A program made the translations under genes and the position numbers. The notes beneath the pieces were generated by a model. It did no database searches. It was given only the letters and a program-made list of their open reading frames with translations, and had not been told where the DNA came from. A stretch of DNA of 15,366 bases from Escherichia coli. GTDB lineage: Bacteria; Pseudomonadota; Gammaproteobacteria; Enterobacterales; Enterobacteriaceae. The stretch lies in assembly GCF_003334315.1 (NCBI RefSeq), contig NZ_QOWR01000075.1. One strand, given 5' to 3'. The stretch's first letter is position 1, and every line of letters begins with the position of its first letter. Below are positions 1 to 6,610 of this stretch, in pieces.

Positions 1-105
1 ATTATATCGAATGTGATTACAATCGGTGGCGGCGGCACAGTTGGTGTGGCGGCCTCAGTCCGGAACAATTTGAAAACAAGAACCTCGCTTAGGCCTGTGT
101 CCATA

Positions 106-459
106 TTACGTGGGTAGGATCAGATCAGGAACAGCTTTAACAGTAGCTTCTTGTTGTGTCTTGGCTTCTTGTCTAGCTTCTTCTTGTGGAATATCTACCA
201 CTTGATAGACATTAGAACTTCCTGGTCGTGCATCTTTTATAATTAACCCCATTTCGAGCAATTTCTTAACCCTTTCCTCTGCTGCTCTTGGTGTTATGCC
301 AAAAACATCGCCTATCTTAGCGTAAGAGGGAAATGCACGATCAAACCCTTTCAGATAGCAGTAAAGATTTTTAGCACTATCTGTAAATTTATGCCCGTTT
401 ACTTGGCTTATTTTTAGAATCCACATAGGAACTTTTACAAATTGTTCTTCATTAATCAT
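106..459 (-). CDS. small winged-helix/HTH DNA-binding protein, 117 aa from ATG 459 (the ORF track shows a GTG-extended 125 aa form reaching 483)
   Basis: Open frame 106..483. The ATG at 457-459 is preceded by AAGGAG (467-472) 7 nt upstream, while the GTG at 483 has no SD. The pattern VPMWILK..AKNLYCYLKGF..FPSYAKIGDVFGITPRAAEERVKKLLEMGLI resembles the HTH_36 / initiator-type winged helix of phage and plasmid proteins (from memory, not searched). The tail is acidic and Q-rich. Confidence 0.6.
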   Translation of the reverse strand: MINEEQFVKVPMWILKISQVNGHKFTDSAKNLYCYLKGFDRAFPSYAKIGDVFGITPRAAEERVKKLLEMGLIIKDARPGSSNVYQVVDIPQEEARQEAKTQQEATVKAVPDLILPT

Positions 460-512
460 TAAAAATCTCCTTGATGTAATCACGCTCTATGGCGCTACTA
501 TGGTGATAAAAA

Positions 513-683
513 TCACTTGCTTTTATTTGAGAGTGTTTCAGCCTCTCTTTTCAACATATCAAGAATGTAATCTGTGACAGTGATACGTCTACTTCTGGCT
601 TCTTTAAATAACACCTGAAATACTTCATCAGGAATATGAAAGCAAGTGCGTGGTTGTCTTTTCTTTTCTGTAGTTTCGCTCAT
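513..683 (-). CDS. 56 aa ribbon-helix-helix-like (Arc/CopG/MetJ style) protein, MSETTEKKRQPRTCFHIPDEVFQVLFKEARSRRITVTDYILDMLKREAETLSNKSK
   Basis: Not in the ORF track because it is under 60 aa; I translated it by hand. ATG at 681-683, TGA at 513-515, AAGGAG at 690-695 (6 nt spacer). The basic N-terminus followed by beta-strand-like FHIPDEVF and then two helices is the RHH layout. It lies between two other same-strand genes with short gaps (19 nt to the upstream gene, 53 nt to the downstream one). Confidence 0.55.
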   Translation of the reverse strand: MSETTEKKRQPRTCFHIPDEVFQVLFKEARSRRITVTDYILDMLKREAETLSNKSK

Positions 684-702
684 AGTTTTCTCCTTCTATT
701 CT

Positions 703-891
703 TTACTCTGTTTCAGATTCTTTTTCATTTTTTCTTAATTCATCAATAATCTTGAGTGCTTCATTGAAGCAAGCTGCTCGCTCTGGATAACCTCGACTCC
801 TTGCCATATTACGATTCATTACTATTTGGTGGCGTGTAAGCTCACCTTTTTTAAATGCCGCGACAACGTGTTCCGATGTGAACCATTTCAT
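703..891 (-). CDS. 62 aa hypothetical protein, first gene of the three-gene operon
   Basis: ATG at 889-891 with AAGGAG at 898-903 (6 nt spacer); TAA at 703-705. I recognise no family. The C-terminus is helical and charged. Confidence 0.55.
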   Translation of the reverse strand: MKWFTSEHVVAAFKKGELTRHQIVMNRNMARSRGYPERAACFNEALKIIDELRKNEKESETE

Positions 892-1001
892 AAAAAACTC
901 CTTATTCAGTTAAAAGAAAAACACCTTGCAAGCCTGACGGCTTCAAAGTGCATTGATTTTGATTATTTAGAGAAGAATGTTTTTCTGTCCCTCTAATACC
1001 T

Positions 1002-1030
1002 ATTATTACATATAAAGAAACATTTGTCAA
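1002..1030 (-). promoter_or_regulatory. sigma70-like promoter for the 891->106 operon
   Basis: On the minus strand: TTGACA (1030..1025), 17 nt spacer, AATAAT (1007..1002). This predicts a leader of about 100 nt before the ATG at 891. Confidence 0.45.
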
Positions 1031-1122
1031 TACCTTTTCACAAAAAATCTGATCTTTTTCATGTACTTACATTTTTTCTTAGCAATTCGTGCTCTTCTGT
1101 GTAGTGCTATTCTTCCTTATTG

Positions 1123-1151
1123 TCTAAAACGCTCTAAAACGCGTTCTAACG
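1123..1151 (+). repeat. tandem 10-mer TCTAAAACGC x2 plus a degenerate third copy
   Basis: Perfect copies at 1123-1132 and 1133-1142, with a partial copy TCTAACG at 1145-1151. The related AAAACGCTCT recurs at 1287-1296. Confidence 0.6.
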
Positions 1152-1567
1152 AGGTTTTGATAAAAGCAATACATTCCCTTATGTAATGGCTGTTTAGCTC
1201 GCCAGAGGCTTATTTAAGGGGCTTATTTTGTATTTGTTAGGTATATGAAAAGGTGATGGTAGATATAAGATAGAGAGTCACTTTATAAAACGCTCTGTAA
1301 AGCCCTGTAGTGAGTTTATATATGTAGGCAATGCGTTTCCATTCCCTACCCTGCTTAATGCTGTTAGAGAAGCATTTAGACCCCTTATTTTTAATTACCT
1401 AAAGTATCCTCTATACATTCCTGTTATGAAACACCTCTGAATCCTTCATAAAACACATTATGACGCAAAGAACACTTTTCTAAGGTGATTCCCTTCCTGA
1501 ATGCTGTTTCTTGCGTCAAAGAGCTACACAGAGCTTATAAAGCTATTATTAATAATAAAGTAGACAA

Positions 1568-1620
1568 AGTAAGTAAGATAAGTAAGTAAGATAACTAAGA
1601 TAGATAAGATTAATAAGATC
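1568..1620 (+). repeat. TAAG/TAAGAT microsatellite-like tract
   Basis: Perfect 13 bp tandem AGTAAGTAAGATA at 1568-1580 and 1581-1593. TAAGAT hexamers start at 1574, 1587, 1596, 1605 and 1614 (spacing 13, 9, 9, 9 bp). Confidence 0.75.
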
Positions 1621-1629
1621 AGAATTCTC

Positions 1630-1661
1630 TTTCGGTGTCGCCTCTGGCTTTTCCACCGAAA
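1630..1661. other. 8 bp stem hairpin / dyad (TTTCGGTG ... CACCGAAA, 16 nt loop)
   Basis: Arms at 1630-1637 and 1654-1661 are perfectly complementary. There is no U-tract on either strand, so it is not called a terminator. Confidence 0.4.
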
Positions 1662-1663
1662 AC

Positions 1664-1828
1664 AATTACACAACTACAGAGAATAACGAGAGTTATTAAA
1701 TGTAGAAAGTGGAATTGTATTGAGGCTTAGTGAAATTACACGAGGAAAGCAGAGTGTAATTGAGCTTTAGCCGCTCTCTCTTCGAGTAATTACACAACTA
1801 CAGAGAATAACAGAGTTATTAAATGTAG
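1664..1828 (+). repeat. pair of 42/41 bp direct repeats (1664-1705 and 1788-1828) bracketing an AATTACAC/GTGTAATT inverted pair
   Basis: Both copies read AATTACACAACTACAGAGAATAAC(G)AGAGTTATTAAATGTAG and are identical except for a 1 nt indel. Each contains the dyad AATAAC-N3/4-GTTATT. Between them, AATTACAC (1734-1741) and GTGTAATT (1754-1761) form a perfect 8 bp inverted repeat. Confidence 0.9.
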
Positions 1829-1889
1829 GAGGGTAATTAAGAGTTAGAGAGAGTTAACACATAAGCAATCAGTATGATTGGTTAGGTGA

Positions 1890-2070
1890 TTACTCTTCTG
1901 CGCACAGCGCAATAGTATTTCTTCGTGGGCGTTACCGCCAACGATAGTTACACGAAGAAAGTAACGCTTTGCTTTCGGTGTGAGCGGAACGGGCCAGCCA
2001 CGAAGCCCAAAGGTAGCGGAGTAAGGCTGCTTGCCAGAGAGTGAAGCTAACGCCGGAAGGCAAAAGATCA
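1890..2070. ncRNA. candidate structured RNA (or gene relic): a GC-richer, hairpin-dense patch inside very AT-rich DNA
   Basis: Perfect 10 bp helix TTTCTTCGTG (1918-1927) / CACGAAGAAA (1951-1960), enclosing GGCG-TTAC-CGCC (1928-1939). An alternative pairing is GCGTTAC (1929-1935) with GTAACGC (1961-1967). Other hairpins: TGCGC-ACA-GCGCA (1899-1911), GGGC/GCCC (1991-1994/2005-2008) and TTGCC/GGCAA (2031-2035/2059-2063). The overlapping 75 aa minus-strand ORF has no SD. Strand is undetermined. Confidence 0.3.
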
Positions 2071-2128
2071 TATAAATAAATATATAATATTATAATTTAA
2101 TAAGTAATTTAATAAATGATCTAATAGG

Positions 2129-2262
2129 TAACAGAATTCTGTGGGGGTGTCTAACAGTTTTCTGTGGGGGTGTCTAACAGAATTCTGTTAGGGTGGGGTA
2201 ACAGAATTTTGTTAGGGTAAAAATCTCTTTAAAAGTTAAGATTAACAGAATTCTGTGGGGGG
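2129..2262 (+). repeat. array of 5 dyad sites TAACAG-N4-CTGT(TA), each followed by a G-run
   Basis: Copies at 2129-2147, 2152-2170, 2175-2198, 2199-2218 and 2243-2262 (start spacing 23, 23, 24, 44 bp). The core ACAGAATTCTGT is a perfect 12 bp palindrome, and the copy at 2175 is a perfect 16 bp palindrome, TAACAGAATTCTGTTA. Confidence 0.9.
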
Positions 2263-2325
2263 TAGCTCACAGTGACCTACCCCCTAGTTCACTATGACCT
2301 ACCCCCCTAGGTCACAGTGACCTAT
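2263..2325 (+). repeat. iteron triplet A (22, 23, 18 bp units: TAGCTCACAGTGACCTACCCCC / TAGTTCACTATGACCTACCCCCC / TAGGTCACAGTGACCTAT)
   Basis: Head-to-tail direct repeats at 2263-2284, 2285-2307 and 2308-2325. The preceding G-run and the first unit form the inverted repeat GGGGGTAG ... CTACCCCC. Confidence 0.9.
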
Positions 2326-2383
2326 ATAGTATAAAGAATATTATTTATATTATTTAATTATAGTATTTAATTATAGTATTGGT
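2326..2383. repeat. extremely AT-rich spacer with a perfect 13 bp tandem TATTTAATTATAG x2 (2351-2363, 2364-2376); DUE-like
   Basis: Read directly from the sequence. It is flanked by the iteron and dyad arrays. A second AT-rich tract (2072-2128) carries the 11-mer TAATTTAATAA twice (2093-2103, 2105-2115). Confidence 0.7.
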
Positions 2384-2483
2384 GGAACTCATTTCCTAGG
2401 TAGGTAGGAACTAATTTCCTAAGTAGGTAGGAAACCACTTCCTAGGTTACTTCCTAAATAGATCGGAAATCATTTCCTAGGTG
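2384..2483 (+). repeat. array of 4 dyad sites GGAA-N5-TTCC followed by TAGGT/TAAGT
   Basis: Sites at 2384-2396, 2407-2419, 2430-2442 and 2465-2477 (start spacing 23, 23, 35 bp). There is a lone TTCCTA half-site at 2451-2456. Confidence 0.9.
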
Positions 2484-2501
2484 TTATTTATACTTATCGG
2501 G

Positions 2502-2556
2502 TATCAGTTTTGATAGGGGTATCAGACTTGATAGGGGTAACAGAATTCTGTGGGGG
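2502..2556 (+). repeat. array of 3 dyad-plus-GGGG units (TATCAGTTTTGATAGGGG, TATCAGACTTGATAGGGG, TAACAGAATTCTGTGGGGG)
   Basis: Units at 2502-2519, 2520-2537 and 2538-2556, with an 18 bp period. The TATCA..TGATA arms differ from the TAACAG..CTGTTA arms by symmetric (compensatory) changes in both half-sites. Confidence 0.9.
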
Positions 2557-2619
2557 TAGTTCACTATGACCTACCCCTAGTTCACTGTGAGCTACCCCTA
2601 GTTCACTGTGAGCTACCGT
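2557..2619 (+). repeat. iteron triplet B (3 x 21 bp TAGTTCAC(T/A)(G/A)TGA(G/C)CTACCCC)
   Basis: Units at 2557-2577, 2578-2598 and 2599-2619. They have the same orientation and family as 2263-2325. The module [TAACAGAATTCTGT + G-run + 3 iterons] is therefore duplicated (2243-2325 and 2538-2619). Confidence 0.9.
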
Positions 2620-2711
2620 TACATCCAATCATCTGTCGATGTAACATATCGTTACTACCAACTTTCTTACAAAGAGCATTTCAGATAGCTGAATGTAACC
2701 TCTCGTTACAT
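2618..2711. repeat. four GTTACAT heptamers arranged as two dyads
   Basis: GTTACATC (2618-2625) / GATGTAAC (2638-2645) with a 12 bp spacer. ATGTAAC (2693-2699) / GTTACAT (2705-2711) with a 5 bp spacer. There is an extra CGTTAC at 2650-2655. Confidence 0.8.
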
Positions 2712-2732
2712 CCATTTGTCACATAGCACTCT

Positions 2733-3208
2733 GTGTAATGCCTTTCTATGTGTGTGCCATAATCCCCCTATATTCCCTGTGTAAATCATAGAATAATGCT
2801 CTCTATTCCCTGTGTAATTCCCTACTAAAAATCAATGAAAAAGTAGCTTAAAGTTGCAATTCTTACTTTCTTCACTTTTACATCACTTTCGCAAAGCCTT
2901 GTGTAATGCGGCTTACAGAGCACCATCAGAAATTGTTGGCTAAAAATTATTCTGCTTGTTTCTGAACGAGTTTTCTCGTTTGTGCAAATTTTAAAATTTA
3001 TTTTGTTTTTACAGCCTTATTTCGTGTAATGCGTGGCATAGCAAGCCCTTTTCTTGTGTTGTCAAGACATTTGGCAACGTTCAAACATCTGTTTAGAAAT
3101 GCCAAATTGTTGATCTAACAAATAAACCTGTATAAACAGAACACCATTTAATCTATTCCCCTGTGTATCCATTAGGCATACCAAATGAATACAGCTAAAT
3201 CGTGTAAT
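2733..3208 (+). repeat. field of GTGTAAT-containing motifs, including the perfect 14-mer TATTCCCTGTGTAA x2
   Basis: GTGTAATGC at 2733, 2901 and 3024; GTGTAAT at 3202. TATTCCCTGTGTAA at 2771-2784 and 2804-2817 (33 bp apart). Variant TATTCCCCTGTGTA at 3154-3167. Related ATTCCCTTATGTAAT near 1173-1187. CCCTGTGTA on the minus strand at 4604-4612. Confidence 0.8.
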
Positions 3209-3281
3209 ATTCCGTACCCATAAGGCTTGAAACAGACCAAATGAATACGGTATACTCATTTGCATTTAAGTAGTGCCAAAT
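3069..3281. promoter_or_regulatory. res-like recombinase-binding region (CCAAAT-containing half-sites) upstream of the serine recombinase gene
   Basis: CCAAATGAATAC at 3181-3192 and 3237-3248. An imperfect inverted partner GTATACTCATTTG lies at 3250-3262. TGCCAAAT is at 3100-3107 and 3274-3281, with its complement ATTTGGCA at 3069-3076. The arrangement resembles the multi-subsite res regions next to tnpR-type genes (established layout; the assignment here is inference). Confidence 0.4.
3227..3256 (+). promoter_or_regulatory. sigma70-like promoter of the recombinase gene, overlapped by the repeated half-sites
   Basis: TTGAAA (3227-3232), 18 nt spacer, TATACT (3251-3256). The CCAAATGAATAC repeat lies within the spacer, which suggests autoregulation. 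Confidence 0.45.
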
Positions 3282-3301
3282 CGACACATTAAGAGGATTT
3301 T

Positions 3302-3841
3302 ATGAGCAATATCGGTTATAAGCGTGTGAGCACTGTAGATCAGAACACTGATCGCCAGCTTGCAGGAGTAACTCTCGATAAAGTCTTTGAAGATAAGCTG
3401 TCTGGTAAAGACACTAACCGCCCAGGCTTACAAGCGTGTTTAGCCTATCTGAGAGAAGGCGACACCTTACACGTGCACTCTCTCGACCGTTTAGGACGTA
3501 ACACCTTAGACATCCTTGCTTTAGTTGAACAACTTAATAATCGAGGTGTAATTGTTCGATTTCACAAAGAAGGAATCATTGCAGACATTACAAGCGCGAT
3601 GGGAAAGATGATGCTTACGATGTTGTCGGCAGTTGCAACGTGTGAACGTGAACTGATGTTAGAACGTAAACGAGAAGCGCAAGCCGTCAATCCTACAAAA
3701 CGTGGTAATGGAAAAGCAGTGGATCGAGAAGGTATAAAGAAAGCCCTTTCTGATGGCCTGTCAGTGCGTAAAACCGCCGAGAGCTTTAATGTTGCTCCTT
3801 CAACGGTGCAACGTATCAAGAAGGAAGAAGAGGAGGCGTAA
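3302..3841 (+). CDS. small serine recombinase (resolvase/invertase family), 179 aa
   Basis: N-terminal GYKRVSTVDQNTDRQ carries the catalytic-serine motif (YxRVSTxxQ). DRLGRN and the SAVATCERE helix are present. C-terminal HTH: GLSVRKTAESFNVAPSTVQRIKK. RBS AAGAGGA at 3291-3297. Confidence 0.9.
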   Translation: MSNIGYKRVSTVDQNTDRQLAGVTLDKVFEDKLSGKDTNRPGLQACLAYLREGDTLHVHSLDRLGRNTLDILALVEQLNNRGVIVRFHKEGIIADITSAMGKMMLTMLSAVATCERELMLERKREAQAVNPTKRGNGKAVDREGIKKALSDGLSVRKTAESFNVAPSTVQRIKKEEEEA

Positions 3842-3849
3842 TGCCTCCT
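3831..3849 (+). terminator. hairpin at the recombinase stop codon (AGGAGGC-GTAAT-GCCTCCT)
   Basis: Perfect 7 bp stem overlapping the TAA, followed by TTGATATTTG, which is only a weak U-tract. Confidence 0.4.
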
Positions 3850-4058
3850 TGATATTTGAGAATTGTCGCTGCGTGGACCTGACGGCGCTGATCTTCTCGT
3901 TAAGCGATGATCACGTATGCGCCGATTTCAGAGAAAAAGACAGTAACTGAACTCACTATGAAGGCTAAACGTATCTTTACACTTGATGAAAACGTTCAAA
4001 AAACAACCTAACCCCAAAATTCAACAAATTGCAACACATTGTTTTTAAAAGAAAATTA

Positions 4059-4106
4059 AATCTACATCAAATATTGGTTGACGTAGATTGAGGTGAATAG
4101 TAGACT
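4059..4106 (+). promoter_or_regulatory. sigma70-like promoter with a flanking 7 bp inverted repeat, upstream of the 52 aa ORF
   Basis: TTGACG (4078-4083), 17 nt spacer, TAGACT (4101-4106). AATCTAC (4059-4065) / GTAGATT (4083-4089) brackets the -35. Confidence 0.4.
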
Positions 4107-4182
4107 ATTAGGGTAAATTACCACCCTTGTAACATCATTTAATGCATGTTCTAATCTTCCTATCGTAAAACCGGAGGAAGTT

Positions 4183-4341
4183 ATGCATTTACTTTCAAAA
4201 CATCTTCACACTATTCACTTTCTCGTTATTGATGTATTCGTTGTGGCTATTAGTTACCGCATTTGCATCGCTTCCAGTGAAGAGATGGACGCTGTTGCAA
4301 TTATTGCTCAAGCAATGGCGATATTAACTAAACGACTTTAA
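4183..4341 (+). CDS. 52 aa hydrophobic mini-protein, MHLLSKHLHTIHFLVIDVFVVAISYRICIASSEEMDAVAIIAQAMAILTKRL
   Basis: Translated by hand (below the track cut-off). GGAGG at 4173-4177, 5 nt before the ATG at 4183; TAA at 4339-4341. It has a promoter upstream and a hairpin downstream. The hydrophobic core suggests a membrane peptide. Confidence 0.4.
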   Translation: MHLLSKHLHTIHFLVIDVFVVAISYRICIASSEEMDAVAIIAQAMAILTKRL

Positions 4342-4354
4342 TAATTTCACTATC

Positions 4355-4398
4355 AGGCGCATAAACACATCTTTGATCGCTGGATGTGTTATGCGCCT
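4355..4398. terminator. long hairpin between the convergent mini-ORFs (16 bp stem with one bulge, 11 nt loop)
   Basis: AGGCGCATAAACACATC (4355-4371) pairs with GATGTGTTATGCGCCT (4383-4398). There is no clear U-tract on either strand, so the terminator role is inferred only from its position between the two stop codons (4341 and 4408). Confidence 0.45.
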
Positions 4399-4407
4399 AC
4401 TGGTGAT

Positions 4408-4560
4408 TCAATCCTTAAGCCATTTCAACTCACTAAGGAGTTTTCTTTCTTCGTTCTCTCGTTGCTTTCGCTCTAGCCAGGCTTTTCCCTCTGGCGTAGA
4501 CAGGAACTTACGAGCGTGAATCTTGCGGTTATTACGTTTTATAGCTGCAATGTTTTTCAT
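4408..4560 (-). CDS. 50 aa basic, coiled-coil-like mini-protein, MKNIAAIKRNNRKIHARKFLSTPEGKAWLERKQRENEERKLLSELKWLKD
   Basis: Translated by hand. ATG at 4558-4560, AGAGG at 4568-4572 (7 nt spacer), TGA at 4408-4410. A CCCTGTGTA motif lies about 45 nt upstream, on the same strand. Confidence 0.4.
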   Translation of the reverse strand: MKNIAAIKRNNRKIHARKFLSTPEGKAWLERKQRENEERKLLSELKWLKD

Positions 4561-4744
4561 CGTGTTGCCTCTGTATTCATATGAAAATTAACAAGTTACA
4601 TACTACACAGGGAGACTACGCATAAAACACAATACAAGTAAAGATACATTTTCAAGACAATAGGAGCCATAAAGCGCCTTTGATGGTTATACCAAAAAAT
4701 AAGCGCCGTAGGCGTATCCACTAAAAAGGGCTTTTTCACAAAAG

Positions 4745-5110
4745 CTATGAAGTCTTAGCAGTTCTTCTCTTATCAGGCACCCGTTGTACTCCGGTGGACG
4801 AAACCGTGCTAGAGCTTGATTCTTTCCCGATCAAGTTAGGTTTTGAAGAGGTGGGCTTTAATCCACTATTGCACTTAAAACTCTTCCCATCATTTAGCCT
4901 GTTTATCCTCTGCAACGTCTCACGACGTGTAGCATCATTGGACACCGCGCCAGGTGTGGAACATCTTGCTAAGAGTTTTGGTAGAAGGTTTAGAGACGGT
5001 GGCACGTCTTCCAGCTTCAAAGGAACTTGTTACGAGGTTGAGCCTGGGAACTACTCGCCCATACGTGTTACACTACCAAAGCCCATAACAACGTATAGGC
5101 GTTTGTAAGT
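4745..5110. ncRNA. candidate structured RNA or decayed gene adjacent to the thrW 3' end
   Basis: GC is close to the core genome, unlike its neighbours. Both strands carry long overlapping open frames (4745..5020 minus, 4794..5108 plus) with non-ATG starts and no SD. Many local hairpins: 4813-4837, GAAGAG/CTCTTC 4845-4886 enclosing GTGG/CCAC, ACGTC-TCAC-GACGT 4915-4928, ACACC/GGTGT 4942-4957, AGACG/CGTCT 4994-5009. On the minus strand, a short GC stem plus T6 at about 4695-4725 could terminate a leftward transcript. Confidence 0.3.
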
Positions 5111-5166
5111 GATAACAGAAGATACAATTTCTTAGAGAAGTTAAGCTAAGTTATTGATTTTCTTGA

Positions 5167-5242
5167 TGGTGCCGATAATAGGAGTCGAACCTACGACCTT
5201 CGCATTACGAATGCGCTGCTCTACCAACTGAGCTATATCGGC
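5167..5242 (-). tRNA. thrW: tRNA-Thr (anticodon CGU)
   Basis: The reverse complement reads GCCGATATAGCTCAGTTGGTAGAGCAGCGCATTCGTAATGCGAAGGTCGTAGGTTCGACTCCTATTATCGGCACCA. It is 76 nt with an encoded CCA, a CGT anticodon in the loop and a GGTTCGA T-arm. Confidence 0.97.
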
Positions 5243-5287
5243 CCTGAAAGGACATGTTCACGAACGTGAATCACGGTGGACAAGGTT

Positions 5288-5351
5288 AAAACTAACCGGG
5301 CGATGCGTCAATGGCCTTGTGAATCAAATGGCTACTTTTGCATCACCCGGT
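5288..5351 (-). terminator. long-loop hairpin plus T-run downstream of proA, overlapping the likely thrW promoter region
   Basis: ACCGGGCGATGC (5295-5306) pairs with GCATCACCCGGT (5340-5351), with one G-U. On the minus strand it is followed by TAGTTTTAA. Confidence 0.35.
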
Positions 5352-5356
5352 TTTAT

Positions 5357-6610
5357 TTACGCACGAATGGTGTAATCACCAATGCCGATCCACTTGTAAG
5401 TGGTCAGTGCTTCCAGCCCCATTGGGCCACGCGCGTGGAGTTTTTGTGTGCTTACCGCCACTTCCGCACCCAGACCAAACTGGCCGCCGTCGGTAAAACG
5501 CGTAGAGGCGTTAACGTAAACAGCGGACGAATCCACTTCGTTAACAAAACGCTGGGCGTTGCGCATATCGCGGGTCAGGATCGCATCGGAGTGTTGTGTG
5601 CCGTGTTCACGAATATGGGCGATGGCATCGTCAAGATCGCTGACGATTTTGACGTTCAAATCTAATGACAGAAACTCATCGTCATACTCTTCGGCTTTAA
5701 CAGCAACCACCTTCGCAGGGCCTGCCTGCAACTGCGCCAGTGCAGCTGCATCTGCGTGTAATGTCACGCCGCTTTCCGCCATTTGTTTGCTTAATGCGGG
5801 CAGGAAGCTATCGGCGATGTTTTTATTCACCAGCAACGTTTCAACCGTATTACATGTGCTCGGACGCTGAGTTTTCGCGTTGACGATCACTTTTAATGCT
5901 TCAGCGATCTCTACACTTTCATCAACGTAAATATGGCATACGCCTATACCACCTGTGATCACCGGGATTGTCGACTGTTCACGGCACAGTTTATGCAAAC
6001 CAGCGCCACCACGCGGGATCAGCATGTCGATGTATTTATCCATACGCAGCATTTCACTGACCAGCGCACGGTCAGGATTATCAATCGCCTGCACGGCACC
6101 CGCCGGTAAGCCACAGGATTTCAGGGCGTCCTGAATCACCGCCACCGTTGCCGCGTTAGTGCGACAGGTTTCTTTGCCACCACGCAGGATCACCGCATTA
6201 CCGGTTTTCAGGCACAGCGAAGCGACATCAACCGTCACGTTCGGGCGCGCTTCATAAATCACGCCAATAACCCCCAGCGGTACGCGACGACGCTCAAGAC
6301 GCAGGCCGCTGTCCAGTACGCCGCCATCGATTACCTGCCCCACCGGATCGGCGAGGTTACACACCTGGCGTACATCGTCGGCAATGCCTTTCAGCCGTGC
6401 GGGCGTCAGTGCCAGACGGTCAAGCATCGCTTCGCTAAGGCCATTGGCTCGCGCGTCAGCAACATCCTGGGCGTTAGCGTTGAGGATGATTTCGCTTTGT
6501 GCTTCCAGTTCATCGGCGATTTTTTCCAGCACGCGATTTTTTTCGCGGCTGGAGAGTTGCGCTAATTTATACGAGGCTTGCTTCGCGGCAATGCCCATTT
6601 GTTCCAGCAT
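5357..6610 (-). CDS. proA: gamma-glutamyl phosphate reductase
   Basis: 417 aa; sequence recognised as E. coli ProA ([21 protein letters not shown]...). It follows proB with an 11 nt gap. Confidence 0.97.

What the first reader, a model, noticed from the sequence alone, without database searches (positions are those of the whole stretch)
1629..1860. 41/42 bp direct repeats carrying AATTACAC, mirrored by GTGTAAT motifs on the far side of the iteron core
The repeats at 1664-1705 and 1788-1828 are identical apart from a 1 nt indel. Each contains an AATAAC/GTTATT dyad. They bracket a perfect AATTACAC/GTGTAATT inverted pair (1734-1761).

The same heptamer appears in the opposite orientation (GTGTAAT) at least five times at 2733-3208. 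The iteron/dyad core is therefore flanked by oppositely oriented copies of one motif. That arrangement would suit looping or bridging by one protein, or a recombination or packaging function.
Basis: seen in the sequence. Interest (0 to 1): 0.55.

Follow-up and report, generated by a model that had tools for sequence, protein, structure and literature searches.

The report
Hairpin repeats and polar words flanking origin
The repeats and the GTGTAAT words are real, non-random parts of the non-coding replication-origin region of a little-studied phage-satellite-like island found in about one in eight E. coli genomes, but they are most likely origin accessory elements (conserved hairpins on one side, a directional word array on the other), not sites for the neighbouring recombinase.

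Summary
The 42/41-nt repeats, the perfect AATTACAC-12-GTGTAATT dyad and five exact GTGTAAT copies at 2733-3208 sit where stated. Locally there are 9 copies against 0.46 expected (0 of 5000 shuffles).

The region is the 2.4-kb non-coding origin of an E. coli island at tRNA-Thr. This copy is cut by IS3 inside its lambda-O-like rep gene.

- **Core:** a mosaic of iteron arrays that co-vary with swappable Rep N-terminal domains.
- **Left AATTACAC words:** these are stems of three imperfect palindromes. The "direct repeat" is a duplication of one conserved multi-tier hairpin. That hairpin keeps its pairing through three compensatory changes in a relative whose capsid protein is only 64% identical.
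- **Right words:** unstructured, all one orientation, and less polymorphic than their flanks.
- **Related families:** these use GTGCAAT in the same outward-reading layout.

The words do not track Rep, RHH or h62 alleles, or recombinase presence. No inversion was seen in 32 loci.

Best reading: backbone cis elements that assist or organise origin function through an unidentified factor. This is inferred, at moderate-to-low confidence. Recombinase-driven inversion or excision is not supported.

The parts
106..483 (-). 5' remnant of the island's lambda-O-like replication initiator gene (N-terminal winged-helix domain, allele A). It is cut by an IS3 end that occupies about 1-120.
   Evidence: Pfam HTH_36. 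Full-length 217-aa relatives hit PHROG 'replication initiation O-like' families. Bases 1-125 are 100% identical to IS3, which has 12810 places in E. coli genomes.
1002..1030 (-). Predicted leftward sigma-70 promoter (TTGACA-17-AATAAT with TG) for the h62-RHH-rep operon.
   Evidence: Consensus scan, 11 of 12 matches. Not tested.
1541..1625 (.). A+T-rich tract with (TAAGW)n repeats. Its length varies among relatives.
   Evidence: Sequence. Indels of repeat units in the alignment.
1630..1661 (+). Hairpin HP0 (TTTCGGTG...CACCGAAA with inner GCC/GGC). The CCTCTGGC and CCGAAA blocks are conserved in family 4.
   Evidence: Fold. Alignment A2.
1662..1718 (+). Hairpin HP1, holding repeat copy 1 (1664-1705). 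The basal stem is CAATTACAC/GTGGAATTG, the middle stem CTACA/TGTAG and the apical stem AATAAC/GTTATT.
   Evidence: Fold z = -8.0 for 1625-1860. Three compensatory pairs across families 1 and 4, 97.7% of cells paired against 21-43% in slid controls.
1724..1772 (+). Hairpin HP2. Its core is the perfect AATTACAC-12-GTGTAATT dyad (1734-1761).
   Evidence: In family 4 the stem sequence differs but a hairpin remains. The outer stem has conserved G-U pairs on the + strand.
1774..1853 (+). Hairpin HP3, holding repeat copy 2 (1788-1828). It is a paralogue of HP1 (TAATTACAC/GGGTAATTA) with an outer CTCTCTCT/AGAGAGAG stem.
   Evidence: Fold. Partial match of covariance model R1 at 1787-1839, 28.8 bits. 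Absent from family 4, which has a single copy.
1895..2066 (+). G+C-rich conserved non-coding domain. TGCGCACAGCGCA and GTGAGCGG occur in all four island families. CCAAAGG, CTTGCCAG and a terminal AAGATC are shared with family 4.
   Evidence: Frame-breaking 1-nt indels among relatives argue against coding. Fold z = -3.5 on the + strand and -1.8 on the - strand.
2067..2128 (.). About 90% A+T stretch next to the iterons. Candidate DNA-unwinding element.
   Evidence: Sequence. Inferred.
2129..2714 (.). Mosaic iteron core.
- Array A (TAACAGAATTCTGT...): 2129-2265 and 2538-2560.
- Array B (TAGTTCACTATGACCTA): 2259-2328 and 2553-2619.
- A+T-rich stretch: 2329-2392.
- Array C (TTCCTAGGTAGGTAGGAA): 2393-2482.
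- Array D (GGGTATCAGTTTTGATAG): 2499-2534.
- Array E (ATGTAAC-N5-GTTACAT): about 2620-2714.
   Evidence: Repeat families D1-D5 and D11. Each array type co-varies with a Rep N-domain allele across 23 loci.
2726..3210 (+). Right word array of the form YYCYT-GTGTAAT-K.
- Exact copies: 2733, 2812, 2901, 3024, 3202.
- Near-copies: 2779 and 3163.
- All lie on the + strand at irregular spacing, with no secondary structure.
   Evidence: The block is 95-100% conserved in family 1. Word columns are less variable than the other columns: 3 of 42 against 93 of 429, Fisher p = 0.026.
3165..3192 (.). 28-bp inverted repeat GTATCCATTAGG-CATA-CCAAATGAATAC with a central AT. This is the candidate binding or crossover site of the recombinase. 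A second CCAAATGAATAC lies at 3237-3248, beside the promoter.
   Evidence: (family D13). It lies in the recombinase cassette (3175-4409) that is replaced in relatives lacking the recombinase. Inferred.
3302..3841 (+). Small serine recombinase of resolvase/invertase type, 179 aa. It is optional in this island family.
   Evidence: Pfam Resolvase 7.5e-34. Gamma-delta resolvase 4e-29 and Gin 4e-26. Absent from 9 of 20 close relatives.

Best explanation
**Context.** The finding lies in the roughly 2.2-kb non-transcribed origin region of a phage-satellite-like island. The island encodes an integrase, a lambda-O-like Rep, a gpE-like capsid protein and tape-measure-like and Dit-like proteins. It is inserted at tRNA-Thr.

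**Layout of the origin region.**
- The central part is a set of iteron cassettes. Each cassette matches one interchangeable Rep N-terminal DNA-binding domain.
- The two features of the finding belong to the constant backbone around those cassettes.

**Left feature (1630-1853).** This is a run of four hairpin-forming imperfect palindromes.
- The 42/41-nt 'direct repeats' are two paralogous copies (HP1, HP3) of one conserved three-tier hairpin.
- The AATTACAC words are its basal stem. They are also the stem of HP2.

**Right feature (2726-3210).** This is an unstructured array of seven copies of a pyrimidine-tract + GTGTAAT word, all pointing away from the core.

**Proposed mechanism (inferred).**
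- Rep bound to its cognate iterons opens the adjacent A+T-rich DNA.
- The flanking backbone elements then act in cis on what follows.
- The hairpin module would work as extruded or single-stranded DNA beside the origin, as a primosome or priming-type signal. This fits a Rep whose C-terminus (...EDFDIPF) resembles the SSB tail, which binds PriA, primase and the chi subunit.
- The outward-reading words would be sites for one factor that is not Rep allele-specific and that acts directionally on forks leaving or re-entering the core.
- That factor could be island-encoded or host-encoded.

**Shown**
- Non-randomness of the word.
- Conserved polarity across four island families.
- Conservation of pairing with compensatory changes.
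- Independence from Rep, RHH, h62 and the recombinase.
- Co-variation of iterons with Rep.

**Inferred**
- That these elements work in replication.
- The single-strand role of the hairpins.
- The identity of any binding factor.
For: - **Context.** The iteron arrays, the A+T-rich stretches and the O-like Rep define an origin.
- **Enrichment.** 9 copies against 0.46 expected locally, 0 of 5000 shuffles.
- **Polarity in family 1.** The layout is the same in the 19 close relatives that keep both repeats, whatever their Rep allele. L003 has lost two left copies through a deletion between the repeats.
- **Polarity in families 2-4.** These use GTGCAAT. Families 2-3 have 3-5 copies against about 0.3 expected (0 or 1 of 1000 shuffles). 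In 8 loci all 13 left copies are on the - strand and all 14 right copies on the + strand.
- **Selection on the right words.** Word columns vary less than neighbouring columns: 3 of 42 against 93 of 429, p = 0.026. An unrelated replacement module carries its own CTGTGTAATG in the same orientation.
- **Hairpins.**
  - Fold z = -8.0.
  - 31 pairs, 97.7% of cells paired against 21-43% in slid controls.
  - Three compensatory pairs, covariation 0.113 against 0.060, 0 of 500 shuffles.
  - Polymorphisms inside HP1 in family 1 fall mainly at unpaired positions.
  - A palindromic segment is gained or lost exactly at the hairpin tip.
- **Position relative to promoters.** The words lie between the two predicted outward promoters and the core, so they are probably not in those transcripts.
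- **Rep C-terminus.** It ends in ...YEDFDIPF in family 1 and ...IYDSIPF in family 2. E. coli SSB ends in DFDDDIPF (my own knowledge).
Against: - No binding factor is identified, and no experiment or transcript data are available.
- The hairpin module occurs only in families 1 and 4, so it is not needed by every related origin. It co-occurs with three late-region genes (h67, h70, h111), which equally suits a packaging role.
- Covariation rests on only about 3-4 independent lineages, all from Escherichia. Symmetric changes in a palindrome would also arise if a dimeric protein bound double-stranded DNA.
- The right words are irregularly spaced. Their positions are not conserved between families 1 and 4.
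- Within family 1 the conservation largely reflects recent common descent. Backbone proteins are at least 87% identical.
- The word resembles one arm of the E-type iteron, so some copies may be iteron relics.
- No DnaA-box or IHF consensus is present.
- The G+C-rich domain folds little better than shuffled sequence when taken in pieces.
Confidence: 0.4

Rival explanations
1. **Packaging signal.** The hairpin module, possibly with the words, is the pac or cos-type site. An island-encoded small DNA-binding protein would use it to direct a helper phage terminase to island DNA.
For: - The module is found only in families 1 and 4. These are the only families with homologues of h67, h70 and h111.
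- h70 opens the capsid/tail-like gene block and has a helix-turn-helix-like stretch (by eye only).
- The module combines blocks of conserved primary sequence with inverted repeats, as terminase-binding regions do.
- Satellites must carry a packaging signal somewhere.
Against: - No phage in the 50,697-record collection shares this DNA, whereas cos-mimicking satellites such as P4 share the helper's site.
- No terminase or portal gene is recognisable in the island.
- The word array spans 1.5 kb and flanks the origin symmetrically, which packaging does not require.
- The co-occurrence rests on only four families.
Confidence: 0.15
2. **Structured non-coding RNA.** The region 1630-2066 would be transcribed rightward (+ strand), towards the iterons. 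The RNA could be a pre-primer, a regulator or an immunity RNA. The AAUUACAC words would be helix stems.
For: - Pairing is conserved with compensatory changes.
- G-U pairs in the HP2 outer stem, and better folding of the + strand than the - strand across 1660-1900.
- Conserved sequence islands alternate with variable stems over about 430 nt in families 1 and 4.
- 1-nt indels exclude coding.
Against: - No sigma-70-like promoter is predicted on the + strand between 1030 and 1629, and no terminator at the 3' end.
- No Rfam family matches at E <= 1.
- Families 2 and 3 lack the hairpin part.
- Pieces of the G+C-rich domain have z-scores of only -1.3 to -1.8.
- Palindromes in double-stranded DNA give the same covariation.
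Confidence: 0.15
3. **Recombinase sites.** GTGTAAT and its inverted copies would be binding or crossover sites of the adjacent serine recombinase. The recombinase would invert or excise the iteron core, or resolve multimers at the three left dyads in a res-like arrangement.
For: - The left cluster has three inverted-repeat sites of unequal length, superficially like res sites I-III. They measure about 34, 28 and 33 bp in relatives without the tip insert, and 53, 28 and 51 bp in the window.
- HP2 is 28 bp, like res site I.
- A resolvase-type gene lies 1.5 kb away.
Against: - 9 of 20 close relatives lack the recombinase yet keep all the words.
- Family 4 has the hairpins but a tyrosine recombinase. 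Family 2 has a serine recombinase but no hairpins.
- 32 of 32 loci are colinear, with no inversion.
- The recombinase cassette carries its own 28-bp inverted repeat with a central AT and a different half-site, 110 bp upstream of the gene.
- HP2 has a non-A/T-rich spacer.
Confidence: 0.04
4. **Relics without present function.** The words would be decayed half-iterons of an ancestral (E-type) Rep specificity. The left repeats would be a neutral tandem duplication of a palindrome, kept only by recent common descent.
For: - E-type iterons in L105 read ATGTAAC-N5-GTTACAT, with variants TGTGTAAC and TGTGTAAT.
- The origin region is a patchwork that also holds non-cognate arrays B-E and F-like words.
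- Family-1 backbones are very similar, so identity by descent explains much of the conservation.
- One relative (L003) has lost a repeat and HP2 by deletion between the repeats.
Against: - The polarity rule holds without exception in three further families, which use a different word (GTGCAAT) and have different iterons.
- Word columns are more conserved than their flanks.
- A fresh copy exists in an unrelated module.
- Compensatory changes maintain HP1 across families whose capsid proteins are 64% identical.
Confidence: 0.15

Closest known systems
Satellite phage P4 ori and crr (cis replication region), both bound by the alpha protein
   Same: In both, a satellite origin needs a second repeat-bearing cis region. 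crr consists of two direct repeats of about 120 bp carrying copies of a short word that also occurs at ori. Here the left repeats recur with a 124-bp period and share a word with a second cluster on the far side of the origin. (The P4 facts are from my own knowledge.)
   Different: - In P4 the shared word is the initiator's own iteron. Here the word is independent of the Rep allele.
- The left copies here are stems of conserved hairpins.
- The two clusters are 0.9 kb apart, not 4.5 kb.
- There is no homology to P4 proteins or DNA.
Lambdoid phage origin (O protein with dyad-symmetric iterons plus an A+T-rich region)
   Same: Rep hits O-like PHROG families. The iterons are about 18-23 bp with internal dyad symmetry, next to A+T-rich DNA. 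Initiator specificity co-varies with the iterons.
   Different: - The origin lies outside the rep gene.
- No P-like helicase loader is recognisable.
- Rep ends in an SSB-tail-like motif.
- Up to five iteron specificities sit in one origin.
- Flanking word arrays and a hairpin module are not features of ori-lambda.
Opposed clusters of polar Ter sites (Tus-Ter in E. coli, R6K and R1)
   Same: Both have two clusters of a short asymmetric site. Within each cluster the sites share one orientation and are irregularly spaced, and the two clusters are mutually inverted about a replication landmark.
   Different: - The word matches only about 6 of 13 core Ter positions by hand alignment, so it is not a Tus site.
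- No contrahelicase is identified.
- Fork arrest is untested.
- The clusters flank an origin rather than a terminus.
Single-strand initiation signals and primosome assembly sites of plasmids and small phages (phiX174-type and G4-type)
   Same: Both show orientation-dependent clusters of imperfect hairpins next to an origin, where the structure is conserved more than the sequence.
   Different: No sequence match to a defined ssi/PAS was tested, because no library was available. Dependence on PriA or DnaG is unknown. The hairpin strand preference rests only on G-T pairs and folding energies.
res sites of Tn3/gamma-delta-type resolvases
   Same: Both have three inverted-repeat subsites of unequal length within about 140-190 bp, one of them 28 bp, near a small serine recombinase gene.
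   Different: Presence of the subsites does not track the recombinase. They lie 1.5 kb from the gene, beyond the origin. A separate and better-placed candidate site exists at 3165-3192.

Membership tests
Iterons of the island's own Rep (theta-replicon iterons) | Tandem, regularly spaced (about 21-23 bp) direct repeats next to an A+T-rich region | tested here: not met
   The words are spaced 33-139 bp apart on the right and sit in palindromes on the left. True arrays A-E have a 21-24 bp period.
Iterons of the island's own Rep (theta-replicon iterons) | Repeat sequence co-varies with the initiator's DNA-binding domain | tested here: not met
   Arrays A-E co-vary with Rep N-domain alleles A-E. 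GTGTAAT is constant across all alleles.
Invertible DNA segment (Hin/Gin/Cin type) | The segment is found in both orientations among copies | tested here: not met
   In 32 of 32 family-1 loci the flanks and core are colinear.
Invertible DNA segment (Hin/Gin/Cin type) | Two inverted ~26-bp crossover sites bound by the invertase, co-occurring with its gene | tested here: not met
   Only one full dyad of the word exists (1734-1761). The words persist in 9 of 20 relatives without the recombinase. Binding itself is not testable here.
res site of a serine resolvase | Three dimer-binding inverted-repeat subsites adjacent to, and co-inherited with, the resolvase gene | tested here: not met
   Three dyads exist, but they are 1.5 kb from the gene. 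They occur with tyrosine recombinases or no recombinase, and are absent from family 2, which has the serine recombinase.
res site of a serine resolvase | Resolvase binding and cleavage at a central dinucleotide | not testable with these tools
   Needs footprinting or in vitro recombination.
Known RNA families (Rfam 15) | Covariance-model match | tested here: not met
   Only tRNA-Thr was found in 1-5400 at E <= 1.
Conserved structured single-strand element (RNA or ssDNA hairpins) | Pairing maintained by compensatory substitutions across relatives | tested here: met
   Three pairs carry double changes. 97.7% of cells are paired against 21-43% in slid controls, and covariation beats 500 of 500 shuffles. 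Only 9 distinct sequences and about 3-4 lineages are available. A dimer-binding DNA palindrome would give the same signal.
Conserved structured single-strand element (RNA or ssDNA hairpins) | Evidence that the strand exists as RNA (promoter, terminator, transcript) | tested here: inconclusive
   No promoter or terminator was predicted by the simple scan. No expression data are available.
Tus-Ter polar fork barrier | Match to the Ter core (GTTGTAAC...) bound by Tus | tested here: not met
   Hand alignment of the word with the Ter core recalled from memory gives about 6 of 13 positions. Only the layout is alike.
DnaA boxes | TTATNCACA with at most 1 mismatch | tested here: not met
   None occurs in 892-3301. 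The word shares only the T-N-CACA half.
Helper-phage cos/pac mimic (as in P4 or E. coli PICIs) | DNA identity to a packaging site in a helper phage genome | tested here: not met
   There is no phage match to 900-3320 or 1000-3300 in near or distant mode. The helper is unknown, so absence from the collection is not decisive.

The most novel reading that the evidence does not exclude
The most novel reading not excluded is this. An undescribed family of Escherichia satellite-like islands has a modular origin.
- Interchangeable Rep/iteron specificity cassettes are stacked, up to five per origin. One Rep DNA-binding domain is shared at 91% nucleotide identity with a lytic Phapecoctavirus.
- These cassettes are framed by a fixed, direction-reading system made of two parts.
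- The first part is the outward-pointing GTGYAAT word clusters. They would act as a Ter-like or priming-like polar signal for an island-encoded factor.
- The second part is a conserved hairpin module. It would load the host replisome through an SSB-tail-mimicking initiator.

That would be a new kind of origin architecture, and a way for a satellite to fire with whichever initiator a helper or a co-resident island supplies.
Probability: 0.12. Interest if true: 0.75.

Novelty: new variant of a known kind. Interest (0 to 1): 0.5.

Why it matters
About 13% of complete E. coli genomes (729 of 5426) carry this island's origin region. I found no description of it in four full-text searches.

If the flanking elements are functional, they define a second layer of origin control that is independent of the initiator. 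That would explain how Rep/iteron cassettes can be swapped so freely.

The hairpin module and the word arrays are small, well-delimited targets for mutagenesis in a mini-replicon. This makes three questions directly testable: how a lambda-O-like initiator without a P-like loader recruits the host replisome, whether the island depends on a helper, and how the island is packaged.

For the narrower claim as handed over, the practical result is negative. The motif should not be annotated as a recombinase or inversion site.

Tried and rejected
- **Rfam** on 1-5400 at E <= 1 gave only tRNA-Thr.
- **DNA searches of the non-coding region.**
  - Phages, near and distant modes: nothing relevant.
  - Plasmids, near mode on 900-3320: two E. 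coli records matched, mainly bases 900-1265, and one is a 4.9-Mb chromosome filed as a plasmid.
  - Plasmids, distant mode on 1625-2130: no match.
- **Phage promoter idea.** I asked whether GTGTAAT is a promoter or motif of the Phapecoctavirus that shares the Rep N-domain. The first 50 kb of Mt1B1_P17 shows no enrichment (6 copies on both strands) and no A-type iterons. An exact iteron pattern in IMG/VR retrieved only the islands themselves. The remaining 100 kb of the phage was not read.
- **Host-factor sites.** No DnaA-box or IHF consensus is present. Ter, CRP, LexA, TyrR, Chi, ops and boxA were compared by eye from memory and rejected. The related island copy L001 has no Chi site.
- **Candidate binders tested by co-variation.**
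  - Rep N-domain, RHH (two alleles at 46% identity, or absent), h62 (two alleles) and the recombinase (optional) do not track the word.
  - h91 (winged-helix-like by eye; ArsR at E = 0.35 only) tracks the T/C form of the word at family level. With four families, and with both word forms present in family 2, this is not evidence.
- **h62 structure.** The model is confident (pLDDT 88.7, three helices), but no PDB fold match reaches E < 3. h62 homologues occur only in Escherichia and have no Pfam domain.
- **Other protein searches.** PDB sequence searches with h135 and Rep gave nothing significant. The island capsid protein is only about 24% identical to Pseudomonas myovirus capsid proteins, so the helper could not be identified.
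- **Inversion or rearrangement among relatives.** None was found.
- **Left-right RNA pairing (P4 CI-like).** Rejected. In L148 and L152 the left arm changed together with its partner inside the hairpin, while the right words did not change.
- **Literature.** Four searches found no description of this island.
Full report
**1. What the window is**

- The right two thirds is E. coli core chromosome (proA, proB, phoE, crl, frsA, gpt, pepD, prfH), with tRNA-Thr at 5167-5242.
- Bases 1-5170 are the tRNA-proximal end of a genomic island.
- In intact relatives such as L001, the island is about 12.7 kb. Its parts are a tyrosine integrase, Dit-like and tape-measure-like proteins, a gpE-type major capsid protein, several small unknown proteins, a 217-aa lambda-O-like replication initiator, an RHH protein, a 62-aa protein (h62), a 2-3 kb non-coding region and an optional small serine recombinase.
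- The non-coding region matches 729 of 5426 complete E. coli genomes, no phage record, and no plasmid record beyond its first 370 bases.
- The same rep/non-coding module sits in islands at other attachment sites and with other cargo, for example GmrSD in ATCC 8739.
- In the window itself an IS3 end (1-125, 100% identical to IS3) truncates rep after about 120 codons. This copy is probably defective.

**2. The observation**

- GTGTAAT occurs 13 times in the window against 2.06 expected.
- Within 1000-3300 it occurs 9 times against 0.46 expected (0 of 5000 shuffles), or 8 if the duplicated repeat is counted once.
- It is the third most frequent 7-mer of the region, behind words of the main iteron.
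- The right copies share a longer context, a pyrimidine tract then (C)TGTGTAAT(G/T).

**3. The core is a stack of initiator-specific cassettes**

- Rep is modular. It has a variable N-terminal winged-helix domain with at least five alleles (A-E) and a C-terminal domain that is constant within the family.
- Across 23 loci each allele goes with one repeat type:
  - A with TAACAGAATTCTGT.
  - C with TAGTTCACTATGACCTA.
  - D with TTCCTAGGTAGGTAGGAA.
  - B with GGGTATCAGTTTTGATAG.
  - E with ATGTAAC-N5-GTTACAT.
- Some islands have only the cognate array. The window, with allele A, carries arrays of all five types.
- These arrays are therefore the true iterons. The region between about 2060 and 2715 is mosaic, while the flanks are constant.

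**4. The left feature is a hairpin module**

- Folded as one strand, 1625-1860 gives four consecutive hairpins (z = -8.0).
- In HP1 (1662-1718) AATTACAC pairs with a degenerate GTGGAATT.
- In HP3 (1774-1853) AATTACAC pairs with GGGTAATT.
- HP2 holds the perfect dyad.
- The '41/42-bp direct repeat' is thus HP1 and its paralogue HP3, and the left cluster contains the word in both orientations.
- The AATAAC/GTTATT dyad is an 18/19-nt palindromic segment at the tip of the hairpin. In family 1 it is polymorphic: both repeats have it in the window and L084, only repeat 2 in most relatives, and neither in L082 and L087.
- One relative (L003) has deleted the DNA between the two repeats.
- A more distant family (family 4, capsid protein 64% identical) has single homologues of HP0, HP1 and HP2, and of the G+C-rich domain that follows.
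- Across the two families HP1 keeps its three stems through three compensatory double changes. One of them lies inside the word itself: CAATT...AATTG becomes CAATA...TATTG.
- HP2 changes sequence but remains a hairpin.
- In numbers: 97.7% of cells are paired against 21-43% when partners are slid, and covariation beats all 500 shuffles.
- On the left, pairing is what is conserved, not the word.
- A covariance model finds the module only in families 1 and 4. These are also the only families with homologues of h67, h70 and h111.

**5. The right feature is a polar word array**

- The region 2726-3210 shows no folding signal (z about -1).
- The block is 95-100% identical in family 1. Word columns vary less than the other columns: 3 of 42 against 93 of 429, p = 0.026.
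- In relatives that lack the recombinase, an unrelated replacement module begins at 3175. It carries its own CTGTGTAATG in the same orientation.

**6. The polarity is conserved beyond the family**

- Families 2, 3 and 4 use GTGCAAT.
- GTGCAAT is the most over-represented 7-mer in the four family 2 non-coding regions examined. Families 2 and 3 have 3-5 copies against about 0.3 expected.
- In eight loci all 13 copies left of the iterons are on the - strand and all 14 copies to the right are on the + strand.
- On both sides the word therefore reads 5'-GTGYAAT-3' away from the iteron core.
- Both predicted outward promoters (1030-1002 on the - strand and 3227-3256 on the + strand) lie outside the word clusters. 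The words are probably not part of those transcripts.
- This makes divergent replication forks the simplest process to share their symmetry. That step is inference.

**7. What does not bind the words**

- The layout is the same whatever the Rep N-domain allele.
- It is the same whichever of the two RHH alleles (46% identical) is present or absent.
- It is the same whichever of the two h62 alleles is present.
- It is the same whether or not the recombinase is there; 9 of 20 close relatives lack it.
- The recombinase is a resolvase/invertase-type serine recombinase.
- Family 4 and one family 3 locus carry small tyrosine recombinases in the same position. This suggests a generic multimer-resolution role.
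- The recombinase cassette has its own 28-bp inverted repeat with a central AT and a different half-site at 3165-3192.
- No inversion of the core is seen in 32 loci.

**8. Mechanism**

My best reading is that both features are backbone cis elements of the origin.
- The hairpins would act as extruded or single-stranded structures next to the opened origin.
- The words would be directional sites for one factor that is not allele-specific.
- A possible link is the Rep C-terminus (...YEDFDIPF). It resembles the SSB tail, which recruits PriA, primase and chi (my own knowledge). This would fit an O-like initiator with no P-like loader.

None of this is shown. Packaging-site, structured-RNA and relic explanations remain open, and each is given with its test in the rival list above. 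Confidence in the replication-accessory reading is about 0.4.

**9. Limits**

- All relatives are from Escherichia.
- Family 1 is young, so identity by descent inflates apparent conservation.
- Covariation rests on a handful of lineages.
- Promoter and terminator calls are simple consensus scans.
- No expression, binding or replication data exist here.
- I found no paper on this island in four searches, which is weak evidence of novelty.

Noticed in passing
window 1-125 (and rep remnant 106-483): The window starts inside an IS3 copy. Bases 1-125 are 100% identical to the IS3 end, which has 12810 places in E. coli genomes. The IS3 truncates the island's rep gene after about 120 codons, so this island copy probably cannot initiate its own replication.
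   Followed up: yes
window 2129-2714; L001, L003, L082-L087, L090-L106: The Rep N-terminal DNA-binding domain exists in at least five alleles, and each co-varies with one iteron type. The window and some relatives stack arrays of up to five specificities in one origin, while others hold only the cognate array. This suggests cross-activation or competition between co-resident islands or helper proteins.
   Followed up: partly
L001 12915-13568 (- strand); not present in the window because of the IS3 cut: The Rep C-terminus ends in ...YEDFDIPF in family 1 and ...IYDSIPF in family 2. This resembles the C-terminal tail of E. coli SSB (DFDDDIPF, from memory), which binds PriA, DnaG, chi and others.
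   Followed up: no
window 129-500; L088 4960-5334 (Escherichia phage Mt1B1_P17, gene QNJ49226): The rep 5' part, including 33 bp upstream, is 91% identical in DNA to a gene of a lytic 151-kb Phapecoctavirus. The phage protein is 328 aa with a different C-terminal part. No A-type iterons or GTGTAAT enrichment occur in the first 50 kb of the phage.
   Followed up: partly
window 3175-4409; L085 4497-5306: The recombinase gene lies on a 1.2-kb cassette with sharp boundaries. In many relatives it is replaced by an unrelated 0.8-kb module holding an unannotated 127-aa ORF. More distant island families carry small tyrosine recombinases (186-207 aa, PF00589) at the same position.
   Followed up: partly
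window 3165-3192, 3237-3263: A 28-bp inverted repeat GTATCCATTAGG-CATA-CCAAATGAATAC with a central AT lies here. A second CCAAATGAATAC with an inverted partner overlaps the predicted -10 of the recombinase promoter. This is likely the recombinase's own site or operator.
   Followed up: partly
window 1895-2066: This is a G+C-rich non-coding domain. The small hairpin TGCGCACAGCGCA and the block GTGAGCGG are conserved in all four island families, and relatives differ by frame-breaking 1-nt indels. The annotated or mechanical ORFs here (1844-2071 on the - strand; one 'hypothetical protein' in strain KK05-19) are probably not genes.
   Followed up: partly
window 1560-1615: A (TAAGW)n A+T-rich tract varies in length among relatives by whole repeat units. 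It could be a second unwinding element or simply a slippage-prone microsatellite.
   Followed up: no
window 3066-3110 and 3270-3285: Words ATTTGGCA/TGCCAAAT and GTGCCAAATCGACAC resemble the iterons (GTGCCAWWTTGTCAC) of a family 4 island (L148). This would be a further, sixth, iteron-like specificity scattered in the right block.
   Followed up: no
L001 5548-18206; L082; L083; L086: The island family has a capsid protein only about 24% identical to any phage capsid protein in the collection. It has tape-measure-like and Dit-like genes but no recognisable terminase, portal or protease. It uses several attachment sites: tRNA-Thr, tRNA-Leu, tRNA-Gly and a site flanked by duplicated TPP riboswitches (thiM). 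I found no description of it in the literature.
   Followed up: partly
window 1097-1114: CTGTGTAGTGCTATTCTT is a near-copy of the right-hand word with its context. It lies on the + strand about 70-90 bp upstream of the predicted leftward promoter and is also conserved in family 2.
   Followed up: no
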